Source: Balanoglossus misakiensis (Eukaryota > Animalia > Hemichordata). Taken from it: a DNA stretch of 64,000 bases. A program made the position numbers and the translations under genes. The notes below the pieces were generated by a model. That model ran no database searches. It worked only from the letters and a program-made list of their open reading frames with translations, and was not told the origin of the DNA. Positions 1 through 37,837 of the stretch are shown in pieces; the first letter of the stretch is position 1, and each line of letters begins with the position of its first letter. The stretch covers positions 653,468-717,467 of the forward strand of contig CM082596.2 of NCBI GenBank assembly GCA_040954595.2. Direction: 5' to 3'.

Positions 1-861
1 CCTCAAGCAAAATGTCCACATGCAAAACTCCACTCACCAAATTACAATTTTGTTGACCAGCCAGGTGTTCTTATTGTTATGTAAATGTCTTACCCTGGCT
101 CTACACTGTGACAATCTGAGAGGTTTCCAGCAATTGGATAAAAACAGTAGTAAGAGAAGTTGCGAGCGTTAGGGGCGCTTTTGGAAAAAGGTGACTACTG
201 GACCAAGTCTTGTCATCTGGGAGCGCTCTTTACACTGATATGTATGTATAATGATTGATTAAAGCAAGTTTATAAAAGCAGCACACTTGTACGGTATTAT
301 ACATTTTCTACAAATTCCAATCTCTGTACATTTCCCATGACAGATGTAGCAAGATTGTGCTTTATTAGCTGATTTATTTCTTTGGTACCATTTATGTTTG
401 GATGCTACGTAAAATAAATAAACATTATGTAGTTATTATTAAATAACTATAGAAAAATAATACATAACTATTTTACTCATAAGCAGATACTATTGACACT
501 GCGAGTTCGGTAAATGTGGCATGATAAACGGTTTAACGCGTACACATGTTGAACACTTGTGAAGTGTTGACACATCGTTACAGATTTTGGCGACAAAACT
601 AACAGTTGCATCTGAGTGCATTATTGTCAGAGGACCGTTGCCTGGTGATTGTATGTTCAACGACCATTGACGTCTCGTAAATTCTTACAGGGTACTATAA
701 ACACAACGTGTACAGTGCCTGTCTGGGTCAACTCAAATTTGCAATGGTAGGCCAAACACACCAATATGTGTATACGTATAGAGGCTACCAACTCATACAA
801 AGACAAATGCTTACATTACACAACATAGAATAATTTCTAAATGAATGAAACTAAGATCAGC

Positions 862-10202: not shown

Positions 10203-10880
10203 TTGATCCCTGGCGAAATACTGCTGTCGATGATTATTTACATGAATTCAATAAGATCAGACGACAAGCGAGCATAATCGTACCTTTTCCCGTGTCTGTA
10301 TCGAAAACCGCTGGTGCAGTTGGCTGCAAACATTCGGATTTCAATCATTCAACGAGACTTAAATCAGCTTAGAATGCAACAGATGATATGTTTCGAGTGC
10401 GAAGCCAGCGTTCTTATGAAATGACCAAACTCCCAGCAATGACTTATGTTTCTTTCACGTGCATTTCATCTCGTGGTACATATTGACACATACTATGTGG
10501 TGATATGCTCCTCTCACAAGAAGAAAAAAAAACGGATATCCCGACGTCAACTATCTTCGAATTTTCCATGGAGAGGTTGGCCAACGCAGAGTACTGTACC
10601 ACGGATTGTTTGACAAGTTCTCAATAATTTGCACATGACTTGAAATATCAACAAAACTAGACCTAGTAAGTTTAAGTACGCGTCATTAAGTAAAAGCGCA
10701 GCGGATATGTCTGTTTAGATCGATGAGTGCGTTGTTGCTATGCGGGATGATTTACTGATTGGTCGGTTCTGATGAAGGGATAAGTATTTCACATTAATTT
10801 TGCGCAAACGATGTTGAAATTAACAGGAAGCAGTAAAGTGTGTGAGTCAAAGCAAATATCACGTGAATGGAACAATTCTG

Positions 10881-10935: not shown

Positions 10936-11427
10936 AATTACAAGATCTTATTTATAGCCCTATTGGAAGTCAGTGACCTGGCTTATATTTAAAGATCTTT
11001 GCAAAAATCTATCTACGGTTTGGCAGGTTCTAATTGCCACAGTGCATTTTCATTGTAAGGTTTCAGGCATAAAATTACATTTTTGCGTATGTGGGGTGAC
11101 ATTTTCATTCAAATTAATCCTTGACCCACAATATTTTTCATAATTTTAATTGCAAAACGATGAACAAAAGCATTAATCACTTAGAAAGAGCATGGTTGAC
11201 TATAATATATGGGATCACGTGAAAGGATTATGCAAAATTTTCAATGTGTTTTTAACAAACAGAGCTGCGACGGTCATATGAGGTCACTGCCTTGGTCTGG
11301 TTTGTACATAATGCAATGAGGTTAATTATACAGTATGTAAATGAATGGGGTGATAGAAAAGGTTCAGTGAGGGCAGGTCATGTCAGGGACGCCATGAGCC
11401 TCAAGGACATATGTTGTGAAAACTAAT

Positions 11428-14815
<3,388 letters not shown>

Positions 14816-17800
14816 CATTATTGAAGGACCCCACACTTTAAATATTTCAAAAGAGACTGTCACACAATTGATCATTTCATGACTTAATGATGCTGTAAAC
14901 ATTCAAGCAGACATGGACACATCCAGACGAGGAAAGACAGACATTTATTGTCGTGATGGTGTGATATTTCACTCACACGAGCGAACATATGAGATAATGC
15001 TGGTACTTCAAAGATATAATAAACACCAGAATCGTAATCAAGCATAGCGTGCCATACCTTATACAGCAAAAACGTAAACACCAGACTGTTATATTAAGAC
15101 CTCAATGATAAAATAAAGTATTTTGGGGTAGATGATGGTTGCAACGCACATGAGTTTTTCAACTTCAAGTGTACACTTACAAAAAGGAAAATAAAAAAAA
15201 TTGTAATTTCTATGGAACCAGTGTGACCAGGCTTTGTAACTGAGCTAGATGGTAATACAGAGTCAAAGCAAGACCCTAAGCAGGCAAAACATACCGGTAT
15301 ATTATGATCAGACACCTCACTCAAATATGCAAAAATGGCACATATCATTACTGTAAGTGACACTTAAAACTGGTGAATGTATGCCTAGCTAATTTTCTTG
15401 AGCAATAAATATTAATTTTTGATGCTTCTTATTCATGTAAATCCAATAAACAGGATAATGAGCTTTAAGATAATTAGCCATCAACAAATGGAATAACAAA
15501 GCCGCTTAGTGGCCTTTACATGCGATAATTATGTTTCCACTGTTGAGCACAATTAGACAAATTGATTGAGGAGAAAACGCCAATTTCCTTGAAACTAAAA
15601 AAAGGTAATCTGATCAGAGCTCGATGTAAGATGCAAATCAGCTAAATTATGACGGAATGACATTAGAATAATTTCAACGACATGTATTACGGTGACATAG
15701 AGACCTCAACAGTCAAGCCTCGTCGAGATTGCAAAGTATGAAGTGTTCTCCGTAGTTATGGATGAGCTCTACTTTATCGAAAGGCAAACTCTTTGAAGAA
15801 TACAGGTAAGTGAAGAAATAGGACAGCCTTCACAGCTAATTCAAACGTTTTGACAGACGGCTAAAAACCTGGGTTTGCTACAGAGAGACTGCAGCAGAAG
15901 ATGAGAACTATGGGACATGTTCGTTGATACGGTGGAGTTCTGTTCATACTGGTTAATATGATCGGTGTTACTGACAGAAAGGTGTATCATTTAAGGTTAC
16001 GCAAAAGTATTGTCAAGGATCGGACAACGAAGCATTTATTGATGGTCTCATTAAACAAAGTCTGTGTAATTTACCGTACTTCCCTTGAAGACTTTTCACC
16101 AAGACACAGCTTACTACAGATTAAAGCTAACGCAAGCAAGCTAGCGAGACTATATTCAAATAATTGTATGGTAGATTTGAAGATGATGTATCCAAAATGA
16201 CACGATCTGTTACTCAAATGTTAAATGACAGCATTTCTGGCTTTGGCTCACAACTGTGATTTTGTGGGTTTATTAGCTTCCATCTTCCCTTGATAGTGGT
16301 ACACATTTCGTTAAATTTGGTTTGTTAGCTGGAATATTTTAAAGGCTAGCGTAATGACAACTTTGTGGATTAATTTCTGAGGATTCAAGTTGAATTCCCT
16401 CCCGTTGCTGATCATAACACCAGCAATTTAATAAACATGTATCTGGCTTTAATCAAGGTGTGTTATTTATTGCCTAAAAACAGCATTTTATGCGAAAACT
16501 GGGAAATAAGACGCAGCTGGAATTACAACTAAACATGCATGGAATTATGGTTTAATTACTAAACTTACTGATTAAGGCTGCACAATATTAAAGTTGAAGC
16601 ATTTTGCATTGTTTCTTCTAAAGTACGTATTAATATTTAAGAAGTATTCATTAAGTCGCAGGTGTCCCTGAAGCATGAAATTAGTAGATGCCAGTTATAT
16701 CATTCATTCTGTCAATTGTTCACAATGACTCAATGGGACAATGACTGAGAAATGTCAATCAATTTTACCATCACTTTCTTGATAATTTAGCTGGCTAAAT
16801 TGATACTCTTATGACAATGAGTTGTCAACCTTTTACCCAGAATGCACTTATTATAAGTAATAAGTCGCTCTTATTAAAGGCCTTACTCAACAGTGGGCCA
16901 AATCTTTTGTTTCCAATAAACAGTAAACACAAAAGCTTTCTTGCGTGCCTCCATTGTACAGCCCTGGGATCAAGAAAACGGCCTTTAAATAATGTTGCGA
17001 AAAAGCATGTTAACACTGCTGGTATACGTGTCTATGATTAGGTAGCAAACAAATAAATTCTGCTGGTTGTTATGACGATACTACACTGGTGCGTGAAGTT
17101 TATTCTCACGACCTTAAATAGGTTTTGCTACCTACTGGTGAGTGATAGAAATATGTAGTCTACAGAATGTCAAGATGGCGAATTATGGTAGTTCAGAACC
17201 TAAATTAATGTTAGGTAAGACTGAATTTTTTGTAGCAGAAACATCTGTAGCAAATTTCAACAAATTTGGTGATTTCAGTTGAAGTATGTCTGTAATAACA
17301 ATTTAAGATTATCCTAATATGCAAATGGAGGAAATTGCATATGACACGCATTGAACCATCATAATGTTTAAAGAATGATATACTGGTATGTTGTAAGTGT
17401 TTACCATACCAACAAACTGGCAGACAGACAGGTAGGCAGACAGACAGACAACAGTACAGCTGTTAGTGCACGGGGCTAAAATGACTTGTGAACAAACTAA
17501 GTTAGTACATGGCACAGCTGGTCTTCACTTGGGAAATTTAAGCCTGATTAATCACAGACATTTGATAGTCATTTTACAACAGCACATTTGGTCATTATTT
17601 ACCCATTTTCTTTGCTATATAGTTGTGATGCAGCAAATAGCAAAGTCACCAAATGGGGTTACAATAAGACTCGGATGAGTATATTTAGACATGTCAATTC
17701 AAATGCTTTTACTGGTGGTTAATAAACAGATGTATAGGTGCGACACATATGTACAAGAGAACACTGGAAATAGAAAGCCATACTCAAGCTTTATACCTGC

Positions 17801-17898
17801 AAAAACTGCAATATTTAAACAGATTACTGTACATTTGGTATTTTGCTTTTGTTAGGACAACAGTTGTGAGTTCGCTCAGAAAGTAATTGATATTTACA

Positions 17899-18184
17899 AT
17901 GGGTGACAAAAACACATGGATATCGATGCATGACTTCAATGGCAAAGTCAACAGGTAAGTCAGTTTCTGTACATTGGATTTGAGATTTTCTAAATGCCAC
18001 AAAGAGACAAGATCAGTTGGAGAATACCTTCTGTACATAAAAATGAAATGAAAATACTCTATGTCATCAATTTTTCGAAAGTGATCAATCCCTTCATCAC
18101 TTCGTCAGTGGGTGGTATCACTTATTTGATCTGTTGCCTTTGGAGTTATGGAATGTCTCACTGACAGATTCATGGGTTCATAGG

Positions 18185-18238
<54 letters not shown>

Positions 18239-21200
18239 CAGTGGCTGATAGTGAAGAATTTTTTCATACATTTTTAGGACAGATAAGACCGAACAGTTTG
18301 CTCAAGACAAAACCTTGCGTGAAAGTGATGAAAATGTAGCGAATAGAGAACGTACAACGTATATTGGTATCATTAAGGGGTTTGGTTTGGAGACCACTGC
18401 CCATGGTATTCCGAGAATCGCTGGTGCGAAGTCAACAATCGGCCGATTAATCTGGTGTGTGTTGTTCCTGGCTGCCGCTGGTGCATTCTTGCGACAGCTC
18501 ATAATTTTAGTGGATCTTTACGTGCAGCGTCCTGTGACAGTACATATTGCAGTCGTGTCAAAGTCCTCTCTGGACTTTCCTGCCATTACTGTATGCAACA
18601 CGAACAGACTTAGAAGTTCTGCTGTTCACAACAGTATCCACAAGGAACTAACCACGGCAGTTGAAGGAACAGAGATATTGCCATACTATGGTGAGTTCAT
18701 CCTATATCTTACTTAGCCCATTATTATACTGTCATAACTTCATAATGTACATAAAAATCCACCCATGCCTATGTAAACACTCATCAGATATTTGAATAAA
18801 AGCAATATGCAGCAAATCACATTTTCCTTTTAAAAGTAAATGCAAACATGTTGACAGCTTGATGGGTATTATTAGCAGAATCCCCTGTGCTTTTATGTCG
18901 TGGGAAATTCGTAGCTTTATAACTGCAATCTCTGTACATGGCACAAGACAGCTTGACAACCAGCTTTGTAATCATTAATTTTCACAGGCAATTTACGCTA
19001 CGAAATTTAATTGTGCTGATTAAAATTTCATGAGGAAGACATCAACAGAAGATCAACTTGGAATTTCCATTAAAACTTAATTACTTTCACATCACAATTA
19101 TTCTCACCCTATCTAATAACTACAAGATATTGCCGGAGATTATTATATTGAAAGGGGGTGACCTCGGTAATTTCTAACAAATGATAAAAATGACTGTTCC
19201 AGTTGAAAGTAATGAAATACGCAGGCTTAATATAATACTATTGTTGCATCTTTAATACAATTTTGTGAACATTTGAACTTTCAGTCTGGTATTACTTGTT
19301 CATTATTATTTGTGAAATTTCATATTGCACTGTTACAAATGTTGTCTGCAGATTAACCATGACATATTCACAAATGATTGATATTATCAATATCCATATG
19401 CATGTGTTTGCCGTTGTTCTAAATAAGTAAACATGAATCGGTAGATAATACTTGTACAGAAAATTTGAAGTCAACTTACTTTCATAGGGTGTTGTGTTCA
19501 ATTTTCTAATCACTTGATAGTCTTTGGGCAACATACACATGACAATAACGTTCTTAAAGACATGAAACCCTAGAGCATGATCACAATATCTTTCATTTCC
19601 TTGTAATCGCAGCGCCATGTCTAGATGGTGATTTCATATGCAGTAACGGTATAACATGTATAAAGTCGTACCTAGTTTGTGATGGAGCTGTTCAATGCCA
19701 AGATGGGAGTGATGAAGAACACTGTCAATATGGTAGGTGAACTGTTTATTAGGGCCATAGTCAGAAGTTATCATTTCAATTTACACCCAAAAGTAAGTTT
19801 AAGCTTATACGTCTTTTCTTTTGCCATTTAATAATCTAGCTGAATGCGCGCATGCACAGTTCAAGTGCCAGAGTGGAAGTCCTTTTGGTTTGTGCCTTGA
19901 GGAGCATAAGATATGCGATGGAACCGATGACTGCTATGACGGAGCTGATGAAAATTCATGTGGTACCTTATCTTGCTACTTTTAGACATTTCAAAATGGC
20001 TTTGTGCAAATATCAATAATTTCATGCTTAATACACACAAGGAAACATTTTTCAAAGAGTGGCATTTACATATTTATATTACTAGAATATTAAGTGTGAC
20101 GTTATCTGATGAATGGGTCACAGTTTTCTGAGGATTTTTATCTTGAGCTTTCTGAAGCATTAAAACGAGTCAAATTTTTTCAAGATGTGGAATCTCACTA
20201 CATTTTTGATGTTGGGTTCACCATCCTCATTTTCACAGTTTGCAGCTCACTTGAATTTGAATGTAAATCTGGCGGGAAATATGGCCATTGTATACCACTG
20301 GAGAATCTGTGTGATGGATACAAACATTGCAACAATGGTGAAGATGAGACAATTGAAAGCTGTGGTGAGTCACCTTGCTTTTTCATTTGTGCGATCCATC
20401 ATCAAATTTGTCAAAAGTGCATGAATGTTTCAATAGGGAAATATAGTGTATTATCAGTACATATTTGACATGCGAAAGTGTAACACTCTTTCCATTCCAA
20501 CAGTCAAGATTTATATCCTCGCTTAATGTAGGTTCTGGAGTCTTTTGAAACCAATTCATTTTATTTTCAGCTAATGACCATGGTTTTGTTTGTGATGGGA
20601 CCAGGCGTATTCCTACAAGTTGGCTCTGTGACAATATTCCTGACTGTTTGGACCTAAATGATGAGATAAAATGCACATCCTATGGTAGGATAAGACAATT
20701 TTTCTTATCTATATCATGTAAAAGACCAATGAGCGTCATAAGTTCTTGCCATGTAAAATTTGGAAAGATCAGACAGGTTTTTGATCACACATCTGCATTT
20801 ATCCTTTACAGAGACCTGCATGTCAGGACTTTTTACCTGCACGAACAAAAACTGTGTTTTGATGAACTCATTGTGCGATTTTGTCAACGATTGTGGAGAT
20901 TGGAGTGACGAGGAAAATTGTACATATGGTAAGTTAATTATTATGACCATCATTGACCCTTCTCTACATATTCATGTTTATCGTTTATACAATAACATGC
21001 TTATACTCTACACCTATATTTGACCTTCTCGATGCAAGTTCCATGTCCAGACACATCAAGCAGATGTCCGAATGGCAAATGTGTAAACAGTTTAGAAGAG
21101 TGTGATATTTACATGGGCTGTGGTGATGATGTTGCCGCAAGCAAATGCAATCAAAGCAGTGAGTATCAGAAAGTGTCCTTAACATTAGGTAGAATGCGCC

Positions 21201-24200
21201 TTGAAAATCAACGTCCTAAACTTTTTCTCATATTTTGTTCAAGGCAACTTTAGATTATTCCCTCTTAAAAATATCGTTATTGAAATTTTAAATTTACTAA
21301 CTTTAACTATTACTAACATTTGAAACTCCTTCAATGTGAAATCAATGTAGCTCCATGTCCTGGTCGACTGGTCCGTTGTGAAGATGGCAGATGTGTCACT
21401 GCGGAGAGCAACAGCTGTGGTGATGATATTGATTATATTGGCAAGTAACACATGTTGTAGCAATATGACAAAGGTTCAACTCCCTAAAGCATCATAAATG
21501 GTTCATTATTTAACTAGTTTATGAACACACGCCATGTGCACAGTCAACATCAATTACTATCATAAATTGAATACATCATGTCTGATGTGCATGTGTGTGT
21601 ATTCAGAGGGGAAACTCAGTACAGACTATTTTACATGCATCTGTTGTTGCAGAAGTGATGGCTTATTGCTTTTTGATTTCAATTGTAGAATCTTTATCAA
21701 TGCCATACCCGGAGAGCGAGTTTCAGAAAATATATGGTCATGTGTTAATGGCGGTGCCAAGAAGAGTATTGATCAACACCATGGAAGAAGAATGTTTGAT
21801 GGCATGTGTGAACGAGACTGATTTCATCTGTCGTGCTGTCAACACATTACCAGAAAATGTTTGTGAGCTTTTGGAAGAAAGCAACTCGTTATTGACTAAT
21901 TCGTTAATGGTGGCAAGTGATTCTGTGTACTATGAATATAGGAAAGGTAAAGAACTTTTCATTTGTGTAACAAAGTCATGAAATACACTGTCTTAAGGTA
22001 AAAGGGTCAATGGGTGTGTGTTAAAGGTAAACTCATTTTTTTCCAGCATCGATTTTCTATTGATTACACAATTTTGCATCTCTCTGTGAAGATCACACAT
22101 GTAATGCAATTGTTTTTAACAGCCAATCATCCATTCAACGCTGTCACTTCACACCATGGTTACGCTCTCCATGGATACACAGAGAAGAAAATCTTAAACA
22201 TCGATGAACAGGAATGCATTCTTGCATGTCTTACATCACCTGGTTTCCTTTGCCGATCTGTCGACTACTTCAAGGATGCTAAAATATGTTACGTGAATGT
22301 GGAGAATGCTTGGAGTGCGGGCGTTAGTCTTTTGAAAGATGGGCTATTCAACCACCATGAAATTCGTGACGGTGAGACCAAGTTCGTTTCATGTCCAAAT
22401 GACATTCTTCTTGATTGAGTCTTTATGTACAACACAAACCTGGTTGCACCAACAGATGTTAAGCTTTAATTTAAAAATACCCTCCATTTTATATTACGAT
22501 AAGTTTAAAATGTGACTCTCCCTCATGGTCAGGTGTGTAAAATTTGTCCACCCTCCTGGATCTCTCCAGCTGACCCTCGCATCTTTTATGTTGCCAATCC
22601 ATTCCATTCTCTCAACAGAAATTTATCCGTTTAACCAGTTCAAGGAATACGCAGGTTTTATGACATCAGTGATTGATGGGAAGAGAATAACCTCTCAAAC
22701 AATCCAGCAGTGTCTTTCCAAATGCATGATTGAACCAACTTTCGACTGTGTGGCTGTTGATTGGTCCACAAGTGGACTCTGTCTACTACTGGACAAATCC
22801 TTGCAATCACCAGATGTGCAGCTTATACCCAATGCTGAATTTGTCCATTATGAGGTCATAGACGGTAAGCTTCAAATTCCTCATAATGACAGTATTTCTC
22901 TGCAGATTTGCATCATCTATTTCACGTGCATCAATTAAGAGATTCTCAAAAAGTGCAGTGGTCTCATTTTCGAATTTCTGTGGTACATTCAGGTGTAAAT
23001 AAATGCAAAGCAAATCCTTTCTTTTTTATAATGCAGCATTTCCTCGAAATTACTTCATCAAGTCTACAGGGCGTGCTCTTACATCATACAATGACCATAT
23101 TATTCGCCGTGTTAGCCTGTCAGAGTGCTTGCGTTTTTGCCTGGAGGGACCAAAATTTGTCTGTCACTCGGCTGATTATTCAAAATATGCCAATTGTTTC
23201 ATGAGTACAGAAACTCCTGAAACTACTGAAACAGGGCTCGGGTTTTACAAGGGTACAAACTATTACCAGAGTAAAAAGGGTGAGTGTAGCTTCGTATTGT
23301 GTACACCCAATATTGTTGTTTGACATTATCAATTGTCTCAGTTCACAAGCCTAATATTCGCTACTTCAGCGATACTGGTTCGTTGACGGACATGAACTTG
23401 TACAGCAATCAATTTGAATTCCATTGTATCATTGAAGTAAGCTCAATAGGAATGCCTTGCTGTTGATTTATCTGTTTGCTTTGATACTTTCTGTATAGCT
23501 GTTTGCATAGAAGGTGACTTTGCCTGTGATCATGGATGGCAGTGTATCAAGGCTTCTCTGCACTGTGATGGAATACGCCATTGTGTAGATGGAAGCGATG
23601 AAAAACAATGTCAAGGTAGTCAGGTTGAATTTATTAGTTTAGTTTTATTTGTAGAAAGTTGTTAACCATGTGTAACATTTCACAAAACTTCATTATGCAT
23701 TTCTTCAAGATACTGAAAATGATGAAATAAATATGGAAGAGTAAGTAAACATGTTTTGCAGAATCGACTCCCAAAATTCACTTCATTCAATTCAATATTG
23801 TGAATTCAACCATATATCACTTTACATGGAAAAAGCCTAAGTTCAATGTTTTAAACCATAATTTCACTATAGGCTATTCTTGTACGGAGGAAGAATTTCT
23901 ATGCAATAAGGGATCATTTCATGAAGAGATTTGTATTTCAAAAGAAAGTGTCTGTGATGGCTACCGTGACTGTCTTGATGGTTCAGATGAAACCAGAGAA
24001 CAATGTCGTGAGTATAATGAGTTTTACTGATGGAAACACAGTTTGTCGATAAGGCGACTAGAAAACCATGTAAATCTTATGTAGGCTCACATACTTGTGT
24101 GTCACCATACACCTGGACAACTGTCCCAAAACAGTTAACACATTACCAGTGATTAAGAATGCTATCTTTCAAAGATAGAAACTATTATTGCCATTCGATA

Positions 24201-27200
24201 ATAAAATTGAGAACATTGTTCTTTTGTGAAATAAGAAGTTAAAAATATTCTGATGTGATCATCTCCAGAAATTTGTCGAGGATTCTTGTGTGATGATACT
24301 CTCTGCATCGAAGACTCCAAGGTTTGTGATCACGTTGTCCACTGCACGGACGGGACCGATGAAAAATCCTGTCTGTATCGTAAGTACCTATCCATTTGTC
24401 TTGGAGACTTCTGATCAAAAGAATGTAGCACTTCAATTCAGTACTCAGCCAATTACTTTGGCATGTATAATATACATTTTGTTTTTATGTATTTTACCCA
24501 GCTGTATGTACCAACAGAGAACACAAATGTCCAAACAAAATGTGTATTCCATTGGAAAAAGTGTGTGACGGTGAAAACGACTGCTATGATTGGACAGAGG
24601 AATGGAATTGCAAATATCGTAAGTTTTTCAATAGGATCACTGCATGGTTCAGTAACCTATTACAATTGACTTAGATTTGTGAAACTTTTGAAACTGTTGC
24701 GTTGATATTTCTAAATATCTCAGCTAACTGCAACAAAGTCTTTTAACGTGACTTTATATTAACACATCAAAATATCTTGTCTTAAAACAACATAGAACAG
24801 GTAAAGGAATGCCTCGTGTTCTGTACACATTGAACTGTGAATTCCACCTGAATGTTTTCTATATCACAGGTGGGGAATGCTACATGTTGGCCAATGCCTA
24901 TGATTATCGTGGAAATGTTAGCAAAACAGTGAGTGGACGAGACTGTCAGAAATGGACTTCTGACTCTCCACACATGCATGACAGAGACCCAGAGGATTAC
25001 CCAGGGGCCGGGATTGGTGATCATAACTTCTGTAGAAATCCCGACAACGAGGCTGGGATTTGGTGTTTCACCACTGACCCGGATGTTCGATGGGAATACT
25101 GTGAAGCGGGAATAAGGCAACAAAAATGTGATGGCGGTTGGTATCCAATCCTGTTCTTAACACATACATTCCTTCATTTGTTTTGTAAAACAGTTGAACA
25201 CTAGCTTATAGAAAGTGGCCAAGCAAATACAATGATATAAACTGTATGAAGCTGTCATTTTCCTAAGTTTTTATATTTTGTTATAATGAATGACTTTTCT
25301 CTAATTCTTGCTGCATATTTAGATATCCGGAAGTGTGACACTGAAAATGAATTTTCCTGTCGAAATCAGCAATGTATTGCTGAACATTTCCTCTGTGATG
25401 GCAGAAATCACTGTGGTGATTGGAGTGATGAATGGGATTGTCAATACAGTAAGTATACCTGCATCTTGGGCAAAAGTAGCATATCTTGGGTTGTACAAAG
25501 TTCATAGCAAGGAGGAAAGATAACAAAAGTGGACAAGATTGCAAAGTTCATGTGTTTAGTACAATTAGCATGCCAGGTCCACTCTAGGTCAACTATGGAG
25601 TGTCTTAGACCATTCCATGTCTCATCAGTAACTCTGTATCTCTTTTCAGGGGGAGAATGCTACATGTTGCAGAGTGGTGCAGATTATCGGGGAAATACAA
25701 GTGTTACAAGAAGTGGCAACGATTGTCAAAAGTGGTCTGAACAAACACCCCATCGACACAACTATTCACCTGAGATGGTCAAAGGTCAAGGTCTAGGTGA
25801 TCACAACTACTGTAGAAATCCTGGCCAAGCCCAAGGTCAATCTTCACCATGGTGCTATACTACAAACCCCAACGTTACCTGGGAACACTGCAGTCTCCCT
25901 GAACCTCTTGATACATGCTCCCAAAGTAAGTCATTATCTCCATGTACAAAGATACAACATCTATCTATCTATCTACCTATCTATCTATCAAAATCTGTCT
26001 GTCTCACTCAACATTCCCTCTTGTATGTACGGTAATTGTGCTCTCATCTTTACGGTTGTACATCATTTCAGACACCATTTGTGCCAAGGATGAATTCACT
26101 TGTCACAGTGGTCAATGCATCATTGCCAAACAACGCTGCGACAGGAACCAGAATTGTGCTGATGGTAGTGATGAAGAGAATTGTGCATTTTACGTCGATG
26201 AAATGGGTAAGCAAAGTTTGGTGGTCCATGAAAGTTGAAGTGACCAACAGATTTGTGCTTTTTACTCAACGCTATGCAGGATTAATTAATAAACAACAGG
26301 GTTGAAACCAGTCATTTAAATTCCATTTTTTCTCTTGTCATCCATACAGGTAGATGTCCTTCCTTTACATTCACTTGTAGGGATGGCACGTGTATCAATC
26401 CCTACTTCAAATGTAATGTACGAGTAGACTGTCCTGATGGCTCAGATGAAATCAACTGTCTACCGCCTGGTAAGAGAGTGATTCCACAGTACACTAATGT
26501 CATCCTTCATACTTATATCAAAGGATAAATAAAACAGAGAGAGGTAAACAAGACAGGAGCTGAGAGATTATTTTATGGGGATTTGAGGTTAGGATTTCAT
26601 ATATTGGTCTGATATAAGATGCACTTGTGTGTACCACTCTTATCATCTTGAAGTGTTAACTTTCTGACAGGTTTTGGTTCAGGATGTTATCGAGGCCGTG
26701 GAGAAGAGTACCGAGGACTTGTCAACGTTACAGAGAGTGGGAAAGCTTGTGTCAAATGGAAAGATTCAAAACACAAATACATTCCTGAAAAATTACCCGA
26801 AGCAGGTAACCAGCATAAAGCAGTAACACAATGAGTTTGTTCAAGTTATGAAGTATAACAAAATACACAGCAAATGTTGTGTGAATATTTGTCTGTGTTT
26901 TTGAAACTGAATTTCAAATACAGAAGCAAGCTCAATTTTCACCAATTACAATGTATACCACTATTATTAGGCTTCATTGTCAGGCCGAAAGAATACCACA
27001 AACTTTACAATTGCTTCTATTGGCACAAAATAAATCTATCTACATGGGACTGCATGTGATCAAATGCATGGAAGTGAAATGTGAGTAGTGGTCTAAATTT
27101 ATCAGTTAACCGAATAACTATATCTGCTGGTATTCAATGTACTAGAACCTTTTTGTGCCAGCATAGATATTTCGGCCTTTCCTGAATCACTGATTAAATT

Positions 27201-30200
27201 CTACTGATACGCCTACTTCCTATCGTTAACAACAAACATTCTCCTTTGAAATCATGTCAATATAAATTTCAGGTTTAGAAGGAAATCAATGTCGGAATCC
27301 AAGTGCAGTTGCTTCAATGACCAAACCGTGGTGTTACCATGCGGACAACTCCACAGATAGAATAGGTCGTGAATTTTGCAACATTTCTCTTTGTGACAGA
27401 GGTGAGTTTATAAATTCTGTTGTAATCTTGTAGATTTCATGGTGTGGACATGCCAGGAAACAGATGTTCCGGAAAGTAATTTCAGAGACTGCAGAAATAA
27501 ATAGCAAAATGAAAGTATTGCTGGCTCTCCGTAAAAGTCAACTGCATGATGACGCTCTGCTGGTAATAAAGTCCAAAAATAGCTAGTAATGACCTCAATC
27601 GAACTAGGCTCTCTTAAACATAATTATATCTGACCTGAATTGTTTTTAGAAATGGAACAACCAATAAATATGTCAATTAGGTGGTACTAGTCACAGTCAT
27701 GTCACTCGGGTGACAAAGTGGAGCAAATGCTGAATGATACCCCTAATTTGTCACACATGCAAGCTAGTATCTGTTTTGACTTTTTAAAAATGCCATGACC
27801 TAGTGACAAGTGTCAGTGGCAACATATATATCAACTTTTTTGCAGTACCTCAAGTAAACGTTGATGAATTCATACCCACGGAAAAGAAACTACCAAGGAA
27901 CTGGTACAAGAAGTATTCAGAGTTCTTGACTGATCATCTCAAGGAGGATTTTGAAGCTTATTATCGAGATCCTGGTTTCCAACGTGTCAAGAGTGAGATA
28001 CCACCTGACTGGTACGGGTTCATGACATTCAGTTCCACTCCAGACTTCAGCGATTTACAGAATATATTGAAATTATCAAGAGACGAGATAAAACAGTTGG
28101 GACATCAAGCTGAAGACTTCATACTACAGTGTACCTTTGACCAGGGAAAGTGCAGTTACAAGTGAGTATACACAAGATTCAAAATTTTGTCAACAATGGC
28201 TGCTTACTCATCAGCATCTAACTCATAGAGCATCTTTGTGTTTTTCTATCCTAGGGATTTCCACCTGTTTGCAAGCAGTCAATACGGCAACTGCTTCACT
28301 TTCAACCATGGTTTGAACGGCAGCAAAGTGAAAGAGTCGACCAGAGCTGGTGCAAACAACGGTAAGGCGCCATCACACGGCCACCATAGCTGTTTTTTTC
28401 ATCTTCACAATCGTCTCACTAAGTTTTCAAAACTACAAATGGATGGCCACAACTCAAATTATCTTGTTATATGTCAACAGGGCTAAAGTTAACATTGTTT
28501 ACAGAGCAAAGTGAATACATTAGTTTATTTGGACAATCATCGGGAGTCAAGGTTTCGATTCATCGTCATGACGCTGAACCTTTCCCAGAAGATGATAGTG
28601 TCACTGTCCAGACTGGAAGTGAGACATCAATAGCTTTGAAAGAGGTATGAACTAAATGCATGTCAACACATTTGTCTGATTGTTGCCACCCCTACCCTGA
28701 GCACCACAGTGACCACCACCACCACCACCGTCATCATCATTATAAGAAGACTACTGCAAAATTCTAACAATAAATCTTACCCTAATTTTTTTATCTTTTC
28801 AGGGACTAATTAAAAGACTGACACCACCCCATGGAGAGTGCTCACAAGGCCCATCTGCCGACTTTAATATGAGTGCAAAAGAAGAATGGGCTTATAGTCA
28901 AATAGTAAGACAGCATGAAATTATGTTCACAGGGTTGCATTTTTTAGAAAGTGAAATAGCCTTTTACAGATGATCTTGTTTAACTGTGCACAAACACTTC
29001 CTTCCTGGACAATAATCAAATTCCCCGAAATGTAATGTCCACAGTCCCTGTGTGTACCGGCCGTCATCCCTGTTCTAACTTCTAAATGCCAGACTGTAAT
29101 AATTTAACATTTTGTTTTGTGGATTCTATCACCAGGCATGCCAACATAGTTGTACAAAACGTCACATGCTGAAGATGTGTGAATGCATTGATACGTATAA
29201 CGATGACGGACCAAGATGTATGATACAAAACACCACACAAGGTAAATCGTTTTGTCATCATGTGTCAATTATCATTGCAATGAGTGAAAAGTCACTCCAC
29301 TCACTCAATTCTAGAGAAACTTTACACTCTGACTCTGCTGTTTCTGTTTCCAGAGATCTGTCGTCAACTTATGTACTTCCTTCATCAAAGAAACGGACTA
29401 CCATGTGACTGCAGGATACCTTGCAAGTGAGTTTAAACTTCTGCAGTCCTTGTCGTTTTTTACAATATATGAACAGCCCACAAGTGTCAAGTGTCTGCAT
29501 ATCAATATTTGAACACTTTGCAACATCTTGTGAATGCCAAAGTACCAGCAGAAAAGCCTCCTTTGTAGGGATAGGCATGCTAGCGCCGCCAATGGCCAAA
29601 ATCACAGCTTGGAGCAGACTTGTACAGTTGGGGAATAAAGGATGATGACGGTTGCACTTTTAAAACAGATTCACATTAAGTAAATAATTCTGGGTTGATT
29701 TTCCACAGTGAAACTTGGTATGGTAAGACTATTTCACAGTCATATTGGCCGTCAACAAAATACTTGGTGAGTGGTAGTGTTGTTGTTGTTGTGTGTAAAT
29801 AGTTAGAGAAACAATGACAGACAGTCAGAGCTAATGACAGAGACAGAAAAAGACAGCATGTTCTATATTCAACAAGCACCAGTAGTAACACATCTTGCAC
29901 ATGAAAACCATGGTCTAGAATTGATAAGCTATGTAAGAATGATATAATGCAAATTTGTGGAAAGCACACATAAGTATTGAGAGTCTGGTAAAATTTAATG
30001 ACAGTAGAGTCTGGGTGAAACATTAAAAGCTGAAAATAGTCTTCGTCTGGAGATGTATAAAATGACAATGCTATTATGTGCGAACTCTACATACATTATC
30101 ACACAAGGTCAGTTGCCACCAAAGTCCTGTGCAAATGACATCTCCATTTCATACAACAGACATTGCCTATTTTAGGGCAGAGAGCCACAAATTTTCTCAA

Positions 30201-31010
30201 TAGTTTTAAAGGTAGATTTGCTTCTCTAAAGAGAAAGAGATATTATCTGAAGGACTTTTTATTTCTTGTTATGAAGGGATCTTTACTCAGAGTGTTGCAT
30301 TCACTCAACGATAAGACCAAAGATATAAGAAACAGCAATGATGCACGGTAAGATATTCAAACTTTTATCACTCATATTTCATTGATAAAGTATTAAAAAG
30401 GCATATCTTCCAGTTTCAGATTGTAGTGTGATTGAAGCGTTACTTCCCAATAACTGTCTGTGAACTTGACTTTTCATGCCAGAAGAACACCAAGTACATG
30501 TATGTGTAAAACAACAGTTTGTGTTGCTACTCAATGAAATGTTGCATATTAATATTAAACCCTTCTTCAGGAGGAATCTGGTTCGGTTAGAAGTGTATTT
30601 TGAAGAATTAAATTATGAAAAGGTGGAAGAGACACCAGCATACCTGGTGAGTAATTGTTATTTACAGGAAGCTTCTGAGAATACAGAAGTCAGACTATAA
30701 TTATAGAGGTGTTGAACCACACTCTTTTTTTCACACATGCACCAGAGTTTCTCGTTTATGTATTGCACACCATCCATCCATAGGCAGACAACACACACAC
30801 AATCTGTTATGTTTTCATGATATTCTACATTTTGTTATTTTTCAGCTTGAAAATCTTATTGGTGATATTGGTGGATCACTCGGACTATATATTGGCCTGT
30901 CTCTCATCACCGTTGCTGAATTCATTGAATTTTTGTGTGATCTTTTCCGACTCTGCTTTGCCCGATTATCTCAGCCGTCTCGGAGACATGTACCTGCATC
31001 CATATTGTGA
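17899..31010 (+). CDS. Giant DEG/ENaC (amiloride-sensitive Na+ channel family) subunit with LDLa/PAN/kringle insert, about 1,700 aa
   Basis: N-terminal channel exon 18278-18690 encodes [11 protein letters not shown]1 and [10 protein letters not shown]. It is followed by 22 module exons (19613-27401). C-terminal channel exons are 27846-28161, 28255-28361 (YGNCFTFN), 28481-28644, 28803-28904, 29136-29241, 29354-29426 (Cys-rich thumb), 29709-29766, 30277-30347, 30571-30646 ([10 protein letters not shown]) and 30846-31010 ([27 protein letters not shown]2, stop). The first coding exon is uncertain (ATG at 15762, 17175 or 17899). Confidence 0.88.
18185..18237 (+). repeat. (TTGA)n microsatellite
   Basis: About 13 perfect TTGA units in an intron, just upstream of the channel TM1 exon. 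Confidence 0.95.
18278..18690 (+). CDS. DEG/ENaC N-terminal exon: HG gating motif, TM1, post-TM1 FPAxTxCN
   Basis: Translation ...[79 protein letters not shown]...; phase-1 donor G|GTGAGT at 18690. Confidence 0.93.
19613..21440 (+). CDS. Channel insert block 1: seven LDL-receptor class A (LDLa) exons, three degenerate
   Basis: Exons 19613-19732, 19840-19962, 20239-20364, 20571-20684, 20812-20928, 21039-21158 and 21351-21440. Example: [36 protein letters not shown]. All are phase 1-1. Confidence 0.88.
21689..23279 (+). CDS. Channel insert block 2: four PAN/apple domain exons
   Basis: Exons 21689-21946, 22123-22371, 22619-22864 and 23037-23279, about 81-86 aa each. They share a C-x3-C...F.C.(A/S)(V/A)(D/N)...C pattern and end in a YE/HE/YQ-type motif, e.g. 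[31 protein letters not shown]. Confidence 0.85.
23499..24618 (+). CDS. Channel insert block 3: four LDLa exons
   Basis: Exons 23499-23615, 23873-24007, 24269-24379 and 24502-24618, each with six Cys and a C-x-D-G-(S/T)-D-E-type acidic motif. Confidence 0.9.
24870..27401 (+). CDS. Channel insert block 4: kringle-LDLa-kringle-LDLa-LDLa-kringle
   Basis: Kringle 1 at 24870-25136 ([33 protein letters not shown]), LDLa 25323-25448, kringle 2 at 25650-25925, LDLa 26072-26206, LDLa 26350-26469, and kringle 3 split over 26671-26805 and 27273-27401. Confidence 0.9.
25960..25989 (+). repeat. (CTAT)n microsatellite
   Basis: ctatctatctatctacctatctatctatc, intronic. Confidence 0.85.
27846..31010 (+). 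CDS. DEG/ENaC C-terminal half: palm, beta-ball, thumb and TM2
   Basis: [46 protein letters not shown], Cys-rich thumb, [28 protein letters not shown] (GxS selectivity filter). Ten exons in frame. Confidence 0.93.
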
Positions 31011-31229
31011 TGCCCTTCAGTGACTGTCAAAAAGCATCACTTCATTGTCAAGATGCTTTGTAGGCTAAGTGTCAGTTATACCAAGTATAAAAGGCTACTG
31101 TAGCACAGGAGTCCAGCAAAGAAGTGTATTCATCAAGATGTACAAGAGGGGTCCTTGTTACAAGGAAAAGAAACAGATTGTTCAGCATGAAGTACTCAAG
31201 TCTTTAAGTCTAAACTTAAGACCTATTTA

Positions 31230-31330
31230 TTGAGAGAGAACACTCATGTGACACTGTGTAAAGAGCCAGTGTCATGGATACCAGGCGCTATATAAATTAA
31301 TTATCCTATCATATCATATCATATCATATC
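31230..31330 (+). mobile_element. Possible SINE/L2-type retroposon 3' tail ending in (ATCAT)n
   Basis: ...tgtaaagagcc...ggcgctatataaattaattatc followed by atcat repeats. This resembles the GCGCTATATAAAT + short tandem-repeat tails of L2-mobilised elements. Confidence 0.35.
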
Positions 31331-31497
31331 GTAAGTAAAAAATTACTGAGAAGTTTTCAATAATTCTTTAACATCCATTAAAGGGACAATGTCATTCACT
31401 TTTCCCAGAATTTTTTGCTATTTAAATTTGTTTTCAATGTTTGCATTGTGGTAGTATTCATTGTCATGACCACATGCATATTTCAACATAGTACATG

Positions 31498-31522
31498 ACA
31501 CACACACACACACACACACACA
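31498..31522 (+). repeat. (CA)n microsatellite
   Basis: About 12 CA units. Confidence 0.9.
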
Positions 31523-33299
31523 AAAGTATCACATACAGATTGCAATTTTAGTATTCAAATATATATGTGTAAGTATCCAACATTTAACATTCCACACCCA
31601 TATTAAAGAATTAAGATAGCCATAAATTCAAATTTTGGTATTAATATGTGTATTTGATATATATGTTATGTAAATTCATTACTTTATATCAATATTTATA
31701 CTTAATATTTTGGATTAAACAAGCTACCCTTCAATTTACACCAGCACACATTTACAAATGAAGTTACATTTAGTTATGGTATTTATATATTTAATAATTA
31801 ATATCCATCTTTTCTCCAGGGGCATTCCCCTAGTTACTATCACTTATGCAAATTTAGTCACAGTTACCATAGAGGGAAGAGATCTAGCCAATGACAGATT
31901 TTCCCTGGGTGGCCACATAGTTTAAACTATGCAAGTGATTATGTCAACTGGAGGAGATTGTAATCATTGAAGCTGCCAATTACTAACAGTGCAGCATGGG
32001 ACAGGGTACTGTGGCAAAGTGCTTGGATCAACAAAGAAAAATCCCTTCACTGCTGATTTGAAAATGTAATTAAACATGCTAAAAATAACTTTATACAGTC
32101 ATGTATACTTTAATATTCACATTAATATTCACTTTGAAACAATATTAAAAGAAAATTGTGGAAATAACTTCTGTTCTTTGTAAGTGGAACTTTTTTGAAA
32201 AATAATTTTCTTTAAAACAATGAGACAGGATTCTACTCTGATCAGTATCTATTGCAAATTCAGAAAATGCAATGTACTGGGCTAAGCTATACTTGGTTCA
32301 ATTGTTTTGACTGTCCAGTAACTGCAGCCTTGCCAAAAAACTGACATGTGCATGTTAAAGTTAATGCCCATATCATAAATTAGACCATATGAATGTTCAG
32401 AAACCAATAGCTGGAACTGTTGGTGTTTTGGTCTGTTGAACTTGCACAATTAAACCTTAGACTGGAAATATTTGGTGATACTTGAAGACTTTGAAGTCCA
32501 TCAATATATATTTTCATATCAGCTTGAAAATGTATGCCAGGCGTAATGAAATGTTGCTGACTATTCTCTGTTTGGGATTTGATTCGGGTCTGACTTTGAA
32601 CAAACTATCAGTTCAACAAGTCATCTATATCTGGGTGAGTGTGTGTGTTTTGTGTGTGCGTTACGTTGATTTAGACATCAGTTTCTAGACTGACAAGTGT
32701 CCAGTGTGGCCATAATCTTGCAGCCAACATGGAATGTGACACTGCAGGTGGTAGGCCTGGTTGTGGATTGGTCACCACATCAGGAGCATGGTGGTAATTC
32801 ATCGTGCCTCTTCATGTGTTGGTTGGTAGAATATTTTTCTCTGGTTGTGCAGCAATACTCAGGCTCTAAGGCCCTGGACAGACAGTTCCAGGGTCCCCCG
32901 AGTACTGCCACTCCCCAGATAAAAGCAGTCACTTCATTTTCACGCCCAGCTGGGGGCCCTCTTCTTAGTTGGGGTCAAACGTTGACCGGGTCGATCACTT
33001 GACTTCTCAGCAATAGTTTTGGTAGCTTCAAGCTTTAAAGTTCAATAGCAAGTCTTCGGTGGACACTGCTCCAATTTTGTGCTATGTAACTCTCGTTGTG
33101 ACGACAATTCTTTCCGCTTTAGACTAAAATTCGTCCTCAGCTTTTCGATGGCCGTCTAATCGTCGTCGGAGATGTTTGAAGCTTGAGTGGCTGTTCACTA
33201 CATCTCCGCTGCGGTGCTGGCTTTCGCTCTCGTCTTTGGTGATGTGACTTAAAACGTGTTACTAAAAAGAATGATGTGGTTAACGAAGGCGAGTTGAGA

Positions 33300-35742: not shown

Positions 35743-36624
35743 TTATCCGAACATTAAACCCCATCCATAGTCATCACGTCCTCGTTTGTTGTCATTTCCG
35801 TTCCTTGATCTTAACCTTGCACGACCTTTTGACCTTTTGTCGAGAACGGTGCGCTTTATGCTTTCACGAAGCACATCCATTGGATCCTGGTTTTCATCGG
35901 TCATTCCTTGTTCTAAGTCTGTTTCGTAATCATCGAAGTCTCTGTCGGCAATTTCCGCAACAAATGGGTCTTCTTCACCGCTGAGTCGTTTCCCAAACAT
36001 CGGACCCCATCCATACCCTTCTTCGAGTCCACGCTTTTCGTTAGTTTCTGCTATGTTGGAATCGTCGAATGTAACCGTGTGTTGTGGACTCCTCTTGCCG
36101 AACATCATACCCCAACCGTAATCGCGCGAGGGATCTCTCTCAGATATCAAGCCCCCTCTTTTACCAAACATCATTCCCCAACCATAGTCATTGCCTCGTT
36201 TCGCACTTGCTTCTTTCGGCACAACTTTTTCGTCCTTAAACGCTTTGTCAGAATGGAGGGATTTATCGACATTGTTCCAACCATATGAAGATTCATCCAC
36301 CAGACCTCTCTTGCCAAACAGCATTCCCCATCCGTAATCACCCTTCCCTGGGTCTTTTTTGCTCTGGGCCCCTTGACCCTGCCGTTGATTGCCGCCTCTT
36401 TTGCCGAACATCATTCCCCAACCGTAATCGTTTCCCCGCTTGGCCTCCAGTGGCCCCTTCTCTTCATCATCCGCCTGTTGCCCGGCAACCCAATTCACTT
36501 CCGGCGCCAGTATACTCTCTCCAACCTCAGCCTTTTTGCTGAAAGTTGTCGTTGGCAACCATGCCGATAAAGTCACATCTAAGTAAATAGATAGGAAGAA
36601 CAAAATTGCCAAATGTCTCACCAT
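35743..36624 (-). CDS. Gastrin/cholecystokinin/sulfakinin-type neuropeptide precursor with six (D/G)YGWGxxF-amide peptides
   Basis: 293-aa single coding exon with a signal peptide (MVRHLAILFFLSIYLDVTLSA). Peptides flanked by KR/KK/R, each with a C-terminal Gly amide donor: GNDYGWGMMF (x2), DPGKGDYGWGMLF, DPSRDYGWGMMF, GLEEGYGWGPMF, GRDDYGWGLMF. The DY-G-x-G-x-x-F-amide pattern matches the CCK/sulfakinin family. A splice acceptor (ttttcattttttgcag) lies about 20 nt upstream of the ATG. Confidence 0.9.
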   Translation of the reverse strand: MVRHLAILFFLSIYLDVTLSAWLPTTTFSKKAEVGESILAPEVNWVAGQQADDEEKGPLEAKRGNDYGWGMMFGKRGGNQRQGQGAQSKKDPGKGDYGWGMLFGKRGLVDESSYGWNNVDKSLHSDKAFKDEKVVPKEASAKRGNDYGWGMMFGKRGGLISERDPSRDYGWGMMFGKRSPQHTVTFDDSNIAETNEKRGLEEGYGWGPMFGKRLSGEEDPFVAEIADRDFDDYETDLEQGMTDENQDPMDVLRESIKRTVLDKRSKGRARLRSRNGNDNKRGRDDYGWGLMFG

Positions 36625-37837
36625 TTCCCGTTCTCTGTGATAATCTGCAAAAAATGAAAAATGTTAGGCGATTAGACAATGACCAACACATATATGCAGA
36701 ACCTAAAACCAGAGCTAGACATTGAAAGTTTGCAGTGATGAAACGTGCATATTTGGACGTTATGATATCTTGTTTTATAGTTCTTATCACGCAGACTGAA
36801 TCCAGTACACTGAATAGCCTTGTTTTCAAATGCCAAACTTTACATTAATACATGAGACATAAGCGCCCTGAAATCTTTTGTCGGAAAAATCTCCTTTCAA
36901 AGTGTGTGATCAATTAAAGTGTTCACAAGGCGTACTGTTCAACGAGAAGCACGAACTGTCCATGTGATCATTGCATCATATTCGCTCCATACTTTCGCTT
37001 GGATTGGTTCAAACCACGTGACATTAACGAGGCATGACACACGATAGTTTTGCCTTCGCTCTGATGACCTGTTTACTTTGTGCTGTGTTGACTGCCTGTA
37101 AAAACTCTTTTGTCTAGCTGTTAATGAAACTCAATGCTGTTTATTACAAGTAGCGAAAGAATATCTTGGCAATGTCAAGATTTGCAAAAAATAACACCTC
37201 TCATCATTGATATTATGTACTTTTCAAAGACCAGCGAAAAGTTCGTTGAAGGTTGCTTGGCTGTAACAGCTGAGCAGATGCTAGTCATCCTTGGCGATAG
37301 AATTCCAATGTTTGCCCTAATTGGTATTATGCATCGAAGACAGCGTCCAACTTCGTATGGCGCATCGTTCCAATCAATGGAAGATCTTGTTACGAAGAGG
37401 GGTTCGTTAAAAAAATAACGCTGAGAAAAAGTGTTTGACAACACAACAACATCACGAAATATTCACTTCAGATAAATGTCTCTACAACTTGACTTTAACT
37501 TCAACCGAATTAATCCCAAGAGAAACGTTTTTATACAGGCATCACCCAAGATTCGTTAACATCACTACCTTAAAAATTTGCAGAAAGACCACCAGACGTG
37601 CAGTCAACGTGTGATGAGAAAAACGAAAACTTATCTATCGTTAATTGTCATTTAACCGCAAGCCGGTTTCCATTGCAGATTAAACGAATGACAAACTTGT
37701 TTCATAATCTGTTACATCGCTGGGGGAGGTATCTGATATCTTGGCATCAGCCAAAGGAGGCAATTTCTGATGATCGTAAAAGCCTTCTTGCGGCTTAGGT
37801 CAGAAAAGCAGCGCATCGCTCAGGTCATTCGCACGAA

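What the first reader, a model, noticed from the sequence alone, without database searches (positions are those of the whole stretch)
18278..31010. Chimeric DEG/ENaC channel with an LDLa14-PAN4-kringle3 ectodomain of about 1,150 aa inserted in its finger domain
Seen in sequence: one TM1 half (HG motif, FPAITVCN) and one TM2 half (GNCFTFN, Cys-rich thumb, GDIGG, GLS filter) of a DEG/ENaC subunit lie 9 kb apart. Between them are 22 same-strand exons that splice in frame with no stop: LDLa x7, PAN x4, LDLa x4, kringle, LDLa, kringle, LDLa x2, kringle. The insert has no signal peptide, TM segment, protease domain or stop of its own, so it is unlikely to be a separate nested gene. Established: typical DEG/ENaC subunits are about 500-800 aa and trimeric. 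The region after FPAxTxCN is the hypervariable finger, which holds the protease-released GRIP/inhibitory tract of ENaC and extra Cys-rich regions in nematode degenerins. PAN and kringle modules typify plasminogen/HGF; LDLa modules typify lipoprotein receptors and matriptase-type proteases. Inference: this is a receptor-channel hybrid, gated by a protein ligand, by extracellular-matrix tethering (mechanosensation) or by protease recruitment. I know of no functionally characterised channel with this architecture.
Basis: partly seen in the sequence, partly recalled or inferred. Interest (0 to 1): 0.95.

Follow-up and report, generated by a model that had tools for sequence, protein, structure and literature searches.

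The report
Sodium channel carrying a receptor ectodomain
This gene encodes an ENaC-type sodium channel subunit with a 1,158-residue chain of receptor modules spliced into its outer gating region, a design shared by many unstudied channels of acorn worms, starfish, lancelets and an acoel worm, which likely lets large extracellular proteins or matrix control the channel.

Summary
Confirmed. It is a DEG/ENaC subunit whose finger carries 22 phase-1 exons: LDLa x7, PAN x4, LDLa x4, kringle, LDLa, kringle, LDLa x2, kringle. RefSeq models with the same order exist in Ptychodera (two genes), Saccoglossus and Glandiceps (57-72% identity), misnamed 'LRP2-like' or 'uncharacterized'. The gene belongs to a wider ambulacrarian clade in which the insert site is fixed and the first and last LDLa are conserved, while the middle swaps among CUB, TSP1, SRCR, F5/8, PAN, kringle and HYR modules. 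Separate lancelet and acoel clades use the same site. A folded relative rebuilds a full ENaC fold around its insert. Module-less relatives carry furin-type sites in this loop; this gene has none. Best reading: a receptor-gated channel, where a bound protein or matrix partner moves the finger (about 50%; untested). No transcript or current was seen. Ten literature searches found no description; the nearest precedent is C. elegans EGAS (EGF+ASC). The scan's own notes held no earlier match to this family.

The parts
17899..17954 (+).
   Evidence: phase-2 GT donor in frame with exon 2; aligns with orthologue N-termini
18278..18690 (+). Exon 2: HG motif, TM1, beta1-beta2, FPAITVCN, finger alpha1
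   Evidence: Pfam ASC 4.9e-19; matches FaNaC1, BASIC, ENaC, ASIC
19613..19732 (+). LDLa 1, the conserved first module
19840..21440 (+). LDLa 2-7, six exons (19840-19962, 20239-20364, 20571-20684, 20812-20928, 21039-21158, 21351-21440); L6 and L7 degenerate; GC donor after L7
21689..23279 (+). PAN/apple x4, four exons (21689-21946, 22123-22371, 22619-22864, 23037-23279)
   Evidence: Pfam PAN_1; orthologous stretch folded
23499..24618 (+). LDLa 8-11, four exons (23499-23615, 23873-24007, 24269-24379, 24502-24618)
24870..25136 (+). Kringle 1; a Ptychodera RefSeq isoform lacks exactly this module
25323..25448 (+). LDLa 12
25650..25925 (+). Kringle 2
26072..26469 (+). LDLa 13 (26072-26206) and LDLa 14 (26350-26469), the latter the family's conserved last LDLa
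26671..27401 (+). Kringle 3, split over two exons (26671-26805, 27273-27401)
27846..28161 (+). Exon 25: family-specific aromatic segment, then finger alpha3 and the return to the channel core
28255..29766 (+). Palm, beta-ball and Cys-rich thumb exons (28255-28361, 28481-28644, 28803-28904, 29136-29241, 29354-29426, 29709-29766)
30277..30347 (+). Small knuckle exon needed to keep frame
   Evidence: aligns with P0001, P0002
30571..31010 (+). Last two exons (30571-30646, 30846-31010): GDIGG, GLS filter, TM2, short tail, TGA

Best explanation
The locus encodes one DEG/ENaC channel subunit with a 14-LDLa, 4-PAN, 3-kringle array inserted in its finger, and it likely works as a receptor-gated sodium channel in which a large extracellular protein or matrix partner binds the array and moves the finger. 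Shown here: the reading frame, the modules, the insert site, conservation in three acorn-worm species, and a family-wide pattern of a fixed site with conserved first and last LDLa and an exchangeable middle. Predicted: the two halves close into a normal ENaC fold around the insert (folded for a crinoid relative). Inferred: trimers; the conserved first and last LDLa and the aromatic segment after the insert form the coupling base; the middle modules set specificity; movement passes finger to thumb to wrist to pore as in ENaC and FaNaC. The ligand is unknown.
For: Same architecture in P0001, P0002, P0041, P0042 at 72, 67, 57 and 63% identity. Of 219 fetched proteins, 120 have both channel halves and 63 of these carry LDLa, PAN or kringle modules between the halves; only one fused double model has a module elsewhere. 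The N half aligns to ENaC up to alpha147, beta115, gamma112 and the C half resumes at alpha276, beta229, gamma245, so the insert replaces the stretch that holds GRIP between alpha1 and alpha2 (PMC6197857, passages); the same corner binds the peptide in FaNaC (PMC11026163, passages). Model of relative P0055: pLDDT 84.4, pTM 0.73; ENaC beta Z 31.5, rmsd 3.5, 345 aligned; ASIC1 Z 28.5, rmsd 4.0, 411 aligned over 17..822. L1 and L14 are the most conserved LDLa (68% and 62% invariant, others 28-59%). In more distant relatives the first LDLa best matches L1 in 20 of 23 and the last best matches L14 in 20 of 39, against 13 and 10 of 129 middle modules. Middle modules vary: CUB, TSP1, SRCR, F5/8, PAN, kringle, ShK-like, HYR, Xlink. 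Pore motifs are intact.
Against: No transcript, protein or current was observed; every relative is a gene prediction, and many models lack the N half and start mid-module. No ligand is known. Conservation of L1 and L14 could reflect folding support, not signal transfer. In six CUB/TSP1 relatives the last LDLa lies about 380-430 residues before the C half, so the bookend pattern is not universal. The four EGAS channels of C. elegans gave no current in oocytes (PMC10424705, passage), so such subunits may need partners or may not conduct. The window protein itself was too long to fold.
Confidence: 0.5

Rival explanations
1. Mechanosensor with a built-in tether: the array binds extracellular matrix permanently and force on it, not ligand arrival, gates the channel.
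For: Tether model for MEC-4, UNC-105 and ENaC shear sensing (PMC10148893, passages). The array is long and matrix-type modules (TSP1, F5/8, Xlink) occur in paralogues. EGAS genes mark putative mechanoreceptor neurons (PMC9478639, passage).
Against: The wide variety of middle modules among paralogues of one genome fits diversified recognition better than one tether; a long multi-hinged chain is a slack link unless stretched (inference).
Confidence: 0.2
2. The array only anchors, clusters or traffics the channel (or captures cargo); gating is by ions, pH or is constitutive, as in a leak channel.
For: The core folds without help from most of the insert; middle modules have lower confidence in the relative's model (pLDDT 51-77 over residues 221-350); one kringle is absent from a RefSeq isoform; insert length runs from two LDLa to over 1,100 aa.
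Against: The insert sits at the one site where gating inputs act in ENaC and FaNaC, in three separate clades; the tails have no PY motif and, by inspection, no NPxY.
Confidence: 0.15
3. Protease-released channel: the array holds the channel shut or recruits a serine protease, and cleavage opens it, as with ENaC GRIP.
For: Same site as GRIP. Module-less relatives carry R-X-K/R-R sites in this loop in 40 of 57 cases, 0.74 per 100 aa. Kringle 1 keeps RNPD-x-E in all four orthologues, a lysine-binding-type motif (recalled).
Against: The window insert and P0001, P0002, P0041 have no R-X-K/R-R site; modular members have 0.08 per 100 aa (25 of 63 with any site). The insert is disulfide-rich (115 Cys in the finger region).
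Confidence: 0.1
4. Mis-joined model: a normal 567-aa channel with a separate LRP-like gene nested in one intron.
For: The skip junction 18690-27846 is in frame. Intron 24 has three AATAAA/ATTAAA hexamers and intron 2 has three weak ATG-to-donor candidates.
Against: No signal peptide or TM in the insert. The junction sequence after finger alpha1 is conserved in hemichordates, starfish and crinoids. No member of the 44-row clade has both halves without modules. A nested gene would have to recur at one site in dozens of paralogues with different contents.
Confidence: 0.04

Closest known systems
Vertebrate ENaC alpha/beta/gamma (DEG/ENaC clade B; PDB 6WTH, 9BLR)
   Same: Two-TM core, HG motif, thumb cysteines, G-x-S filter; best profile scores among channels (E 7e-70 to 5e-68, ASIC 3e-66) and best structural match of the relative's model; regulatory insert in the finger after alpha1.
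   Different: GRIP is a small protease-cut domain; here the site holds 21 folded modules (1,158 aa), with no furin-type site and no PY motif.
FaNaC (Malacoceros FaNaC1 8ON7, Aplysia 7YVB)
   Same: Clade B channel gated by a ligand at the finger; best match of the N half.
   Different: Ligand is a short peptide held between finger helices; no added modules.
C. elegans EGAS-1 to -4 (EGF plus ASC)
   Same: DEG/ENaC proteins with an added extracellular module type (PMC9478639, PMC10424705; passages).
   Different: EGF, not LDLa/PAN/kringle; position of the EGF part not tested here; no current in oocytes; not retrieved by any search with this family.
LRP2/megalin and LDL receptor family (the RefSeq name of P0001, P0002)
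   Same: Clusters of LDLa repeats.
   Different: No signal peptide, no YWTD propeller or EGF hit, two TMs, channel core; the name is a mis-annotation.
Plasminogen/HGF and factor XI/prekallikrein
   Same: PAN and kringle modules; four tandem apple domains.
   Different: No protease domain; the four-PAN model does not superpose on the apple disc (TM 0.2, rmsd about 23 A).
'Uncharacterized ambulacrarian and cephalochordate' clade B channels in Elkhatib et al. 2023 (PMC10507113)
   Same: Family members from Ptychodera, Saccoglossus and Acanthaster are in that paper's sequence and alignment files.
   Different: The main text has no occurrence of LDL, lipoprotein or kringle; the inserts are trimmed from the alignment rows shown.

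Membership tests
DEG/ENaC superfamily | Two TM helices around a large ectodomain, short cytosolic ends | tested here: met
   hydrophobic segments 72-90 and 1684-1702 only
DEG/ENaC superfamily | HG motif, FPAxTxCN, GNCxTFN, Cys-rich thumb, G-x-S filter; Pfam ASC | tested here: met
DEG/ENaC superfamily | Palm/thumb/finger/knuckle fold | tested here: met
   on relative P0055 only: Z 31.5, rmsd 3.5, 345 aligned to 6wth_B
DEG/ENaC superfamily | Trimeric assembly | not tested
   inferred from family
DEG/ENaC superfamily | Amiloride-sensitive cation current | not testable with these tools
   needs electrophysiology
Vertebrate ENaC subunits | GRIP domain with polybasic cleavage sites | tested here: not met
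   no R-X-K/R-R between the halves; site filled by other modules
Vertebrate ENaC subunits | C-terminal PY motif | tested here: not met
Vertebrate ENaC subunits | Nests within the ENaC clade | not tested
   no ENaC sequence was in the trees; profile scores only slightly favour ENaC over ASIC
ASIC | Proton-sensing residues of palm/wrist and acidic pocket | not tested
   residue-level mapping not done
LRP/LDLR family | LDLa clusters | tested here: met
   12 of 14 above Pfam cut-off
LRP/LDLR family | Signal peptide, YWTD propellers with EGF, single TM | tested here: not met
Plasminogen/HGF family | PAN + kringles + trypsin-like domain | tested here: not met
   no trypsin hit in 32 window frames or in P0041, P0042
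EGAS (EGF + ASC) | EGF domains with ASC | tested here: not met
   no EGF hit above cut-off in the window gene

The most novel reading that the evidence does not exclude
An undescribed class of programmable receptor-channels: DEG/ENaC subunits whose gating loop became an exon-shuffling socket, filled with different recognition modules in ambulacrarians, lancelets and acoels, so that lipoproteins, matrix proteins, glycans or microbial ligands open a sodium pore directly; the vertebrate GRIP domain would be one more occupant of that socket.
Probability: 0.45. Interest if true: 0.92.

Novelty: new variant of a known kind. Interest (0 to 1): 0.82.

Why it matters
Known DEG/ENaC channels answer to protons, small peptides, proteases or force. 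A family with swappable LDLa, CUB, SRCR, PAN, kringle and F5/8 arrays at the gating site would add gating by large proteins, give natural constructs to test the long-standing tether model, and inform where the ENaC GRIP domain came from. The genes are hidden in databases under LRP2-like or 'uncharacterized' names.

Tried and rejected
No whole genome is held for this window. No RNA holder was listed for 21600-31100; this is no evidence either way. The wide structural search for the PAN block was not run. The four-PAN model does not form the factor XI apple disc (alignment of only 8 rows). Exon 25 alone finds nothing significant in the PDB (best E 0.67), so whether its conserved DW-x-GF helix equals ENaC alpha2 is unresolved. 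N-half-less database models were checked as possible secreted or single-pass isoforms: none of 23 checked starts with a signal peptide, so they were read as truncated models. No second DEG/ENaC gene lies in the window. Literature searches without a description of the family; no LDL or kringle in main text of PMC9822975, PMC10507113, PMC9234716, PMC9949801; no LDL in PMC8791634 or PMC10148893; no ENaC term in the two supplements of PMC4729200; no family motif in 6 of 7 supplements of PMC9822975. Scan notes: no match by words or sequence.
Full report
Observation. Reading 17000-32500 and fixing splice sites gives one reading frame of 34 exons, 5,181 nt and 1,726 aa, from an ATG at 17899 to TGA at 31010. 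The 22 insert exons (19613-27401) total 1,158 aa. All 23 introns in and flanking the insert are phase 1, while the other ten are mixed; this is the pattern expected of exon-shuffled extracellular modules (established knowledge, recalled). Pfam on 32 window frames finds ASC in both halves, 12 of 14 LDLa above cut-off (L6 weak, L7 no hit), four PAN_1 and three kringles. The model has only two hydrophobic segments and intact [22 protein letters not shown] and GLS motifs.

One gene or two. Skipping the insert is also in frame (567 aa), so phase alone does not decide. A search with exon 2 among longer proteins returned 4 hits from 651 candidates, all with ASC, LDLa and kringle: two from Ptychodera flava, one each from Saccoglossus and Glandiceps. 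They align over the whole length with the same module order, at 72, 67, 57 and 63% identity (using the fuller isoforms P0041 and P0042). The window is therefore most likely an acorn-worm genome (inference). These are RefSeq predictions; I did not see their RNA support. One Ptychodera isoform lacks exactly kringle 1. The insert has no signal peptide or TM segment.

The family. Searches with the C half and with exon 25 (147 hits) gave 219 proteins in all, with redundancy from isoforms and alleles. With my own profiles, 120 have both halves; 63 of these carry LDLa, PAN or kringle between the halves and 57 carry none of the three; the other 99 lack a half and were not counted. Pfam shows the middle changing among CUB, TSP1, SRCR, F5/8, PAN, kringle, ShK-like, HYR and Xlink. 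An IQ-TREE tree of the C half (67 of 93 rows; 12 partial or isoform rows and 14 near-duplicates left out; LG+G4) puts all LDLa-bearing ambulacrarian channels, plus one PAN-only member, in a 44-row clade at 99/99, with the window gene beside P0001. A second tree of 58 rows gave this clade 92/97 with unsettled bootstraps, and placed lancelet F5/8-kringle channels and acoel LDLa-CUB channels (Symsagittifera) as separate clades in an unresolved base. So the site was filled once and remodelled, or up to three times; the data do not decide. No ENaC, FaNaC or degenerin was in these trees.

Where the insert sits. The N half aligns to ENaC up to alpha147, beta115 and gamma112; the C half resumes at alpha276, beta229 and gamma245. 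GRIP lies between finger alpha1 and alpha2 and wedges finger and thumb (PMC6197857, passages; PMC8791634, passages). The same corner binds FMRFamide in FaNaC and drives finger, thumb and wrist motion (PMC11026163, passages). The window protein exceeds the folding limit, so I folded the crinoid relative P0055 (839 aa, six LDLa, 59-row alignment): pLDDT 84.4, pTM 0.73, first two LDLa at 92-94 and middle ones lower. Its halves rebuild a complete channel fold: ENaC beta Z 31.5 (rmsd 3.5, 345 aligned), ASIC1 Z 28.5 (rmsd 4.0, 411 aligned).

Fixed and variable parts. Among the orthologues L1 and L14 are the most conserved LDLa (68% and 62% invariant; non-Cys identity 0.76 each, like core exons), while PAN1-3 and L6-7 drift. 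In more distant relatives (16 close or duplicate rows left out) the first LDLa best matches L1 in 20 of 23 and the last best matches L14 in 20 of 39, against 13 and 10 of 129 middle modules; six CUB/TSP1 members do not end on an LDLa. A family-specific aromatic segment follows the insert. Module-less relatives have a low-complexity loop at this site with R-X-K/R-R in 40 of 57 (0.74 per 100 aa); modular ones have 0.08 per 100 aa and the window gene none. The four PAN domains of P0001 fold as apple domains (pLDDT 81.7, pTM 0.63) but not as the factor XI disc.

Mechanism. Shown: anatomy, site and conservation. Predicted: intact channel fold. Inferred: the array binds a large partner, the conserved end modules pass the movement to the finger, and the pore opens as in ENaC and FaNaC (0.5). 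Rivals: permanent matrix tether and force gating (0.2; PMC10148893, passages), anchoring only (0.15), protease release (0.1), mis-joined genes (0.04). Nothing here measures gating, and docking of L1 on the core could not be tested.

What is known. Ten searches found no account of this architecture. Family members are present in the supplementary sequence files of PMC10507113 (11 of 15 files searched), whose text calls such clade B channels uncharacterized and never mentions LDL or kringle (passages). The closest precedent for added modules is C. elegans EGAS (PMC9478639 and PMC10424705, passages), which gave no oocyte current. Subscription papers and unsearched supplements (file 7 of PMC9822975; files 6, 13-15 of PMC10507113) could hold a mention, and the domain lists are visible in public databases. 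An earlier scan note (e1-8148048) reports a large insert at the knuckle of another DEG/ENaC group; it is a different site and was not tested here.

Verdict. A real gene, a DEG/ENaC member by every feature testable here, not an ENaC subunit, LRP or plasminogen relative. New variant of a known kind, standing for a large undescribed family; interest 0.82.

Noticed in passing
window 35746-36663 (minus strand): Neuropeptide precursor with a signal peptide and six amidation-type copies of a D/G-Y-G-W-G-x-x-F-G motif between dibasic sites, 4.7 kb downstream of the channel and convergent to it; no Pfam hit. Looks cholecystokinin/sulfakinin-like (recalled). No evidence of a link to the channel.
   Followed up: partly
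P0013, P0031 (Ptychodera), P0018 (Glandiceps), P0094, P0097/P0209 (Saccoglossus): Subfamily with an extra N-terminal part before the channel: signal peptide (in 4 of 6 models), FN3, EGF-like repeats (by inspection) and an extra TM helix, giving a predicted three-pass subunit with two ectodomains, in three species.
   Followed up: partly
P0196/P0219 (Symsagittifera roscoffensis) and unnamed P0145, P0190, P0194: Acoel-type DEG/ENaC with LDLa + CUB in the same finger site, several with furin-type sites as well.
   Followed up: partly
P0032-P0038, P0181 (Branchiostoma): Lancelet channels with F5/8, link-like and kringle modules in the same site, a separate clade.
   Followed up: partly
window 11398-14604 (+): Carboxylesterase-family gene upstream of the channel.
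   Followed up: no
window 1264-2295 (-), 4225-5271 (-), 6951-7937 (+), 9168-10247 (-): Four long single-frame 7TM-like ORFs; three hit 7tm_1, 6951-7937 has no Pfam hit.
   Followed up: no
window 53604-64000: 88-bp satellite array, about 119 copies at 98% match.
   Followed up: no
window 21441: GC-AG intron after the degenerate LDLa 7 exon; the in-frame join is supported by the orthologue alignment.
   Followed up: yes
P0008: Older Saccoglossus model that fuses two tandem family genes (N-LDLa-C-N-LDLa-C); a newer model P0014 covers the first alone.
   Followed up: partly
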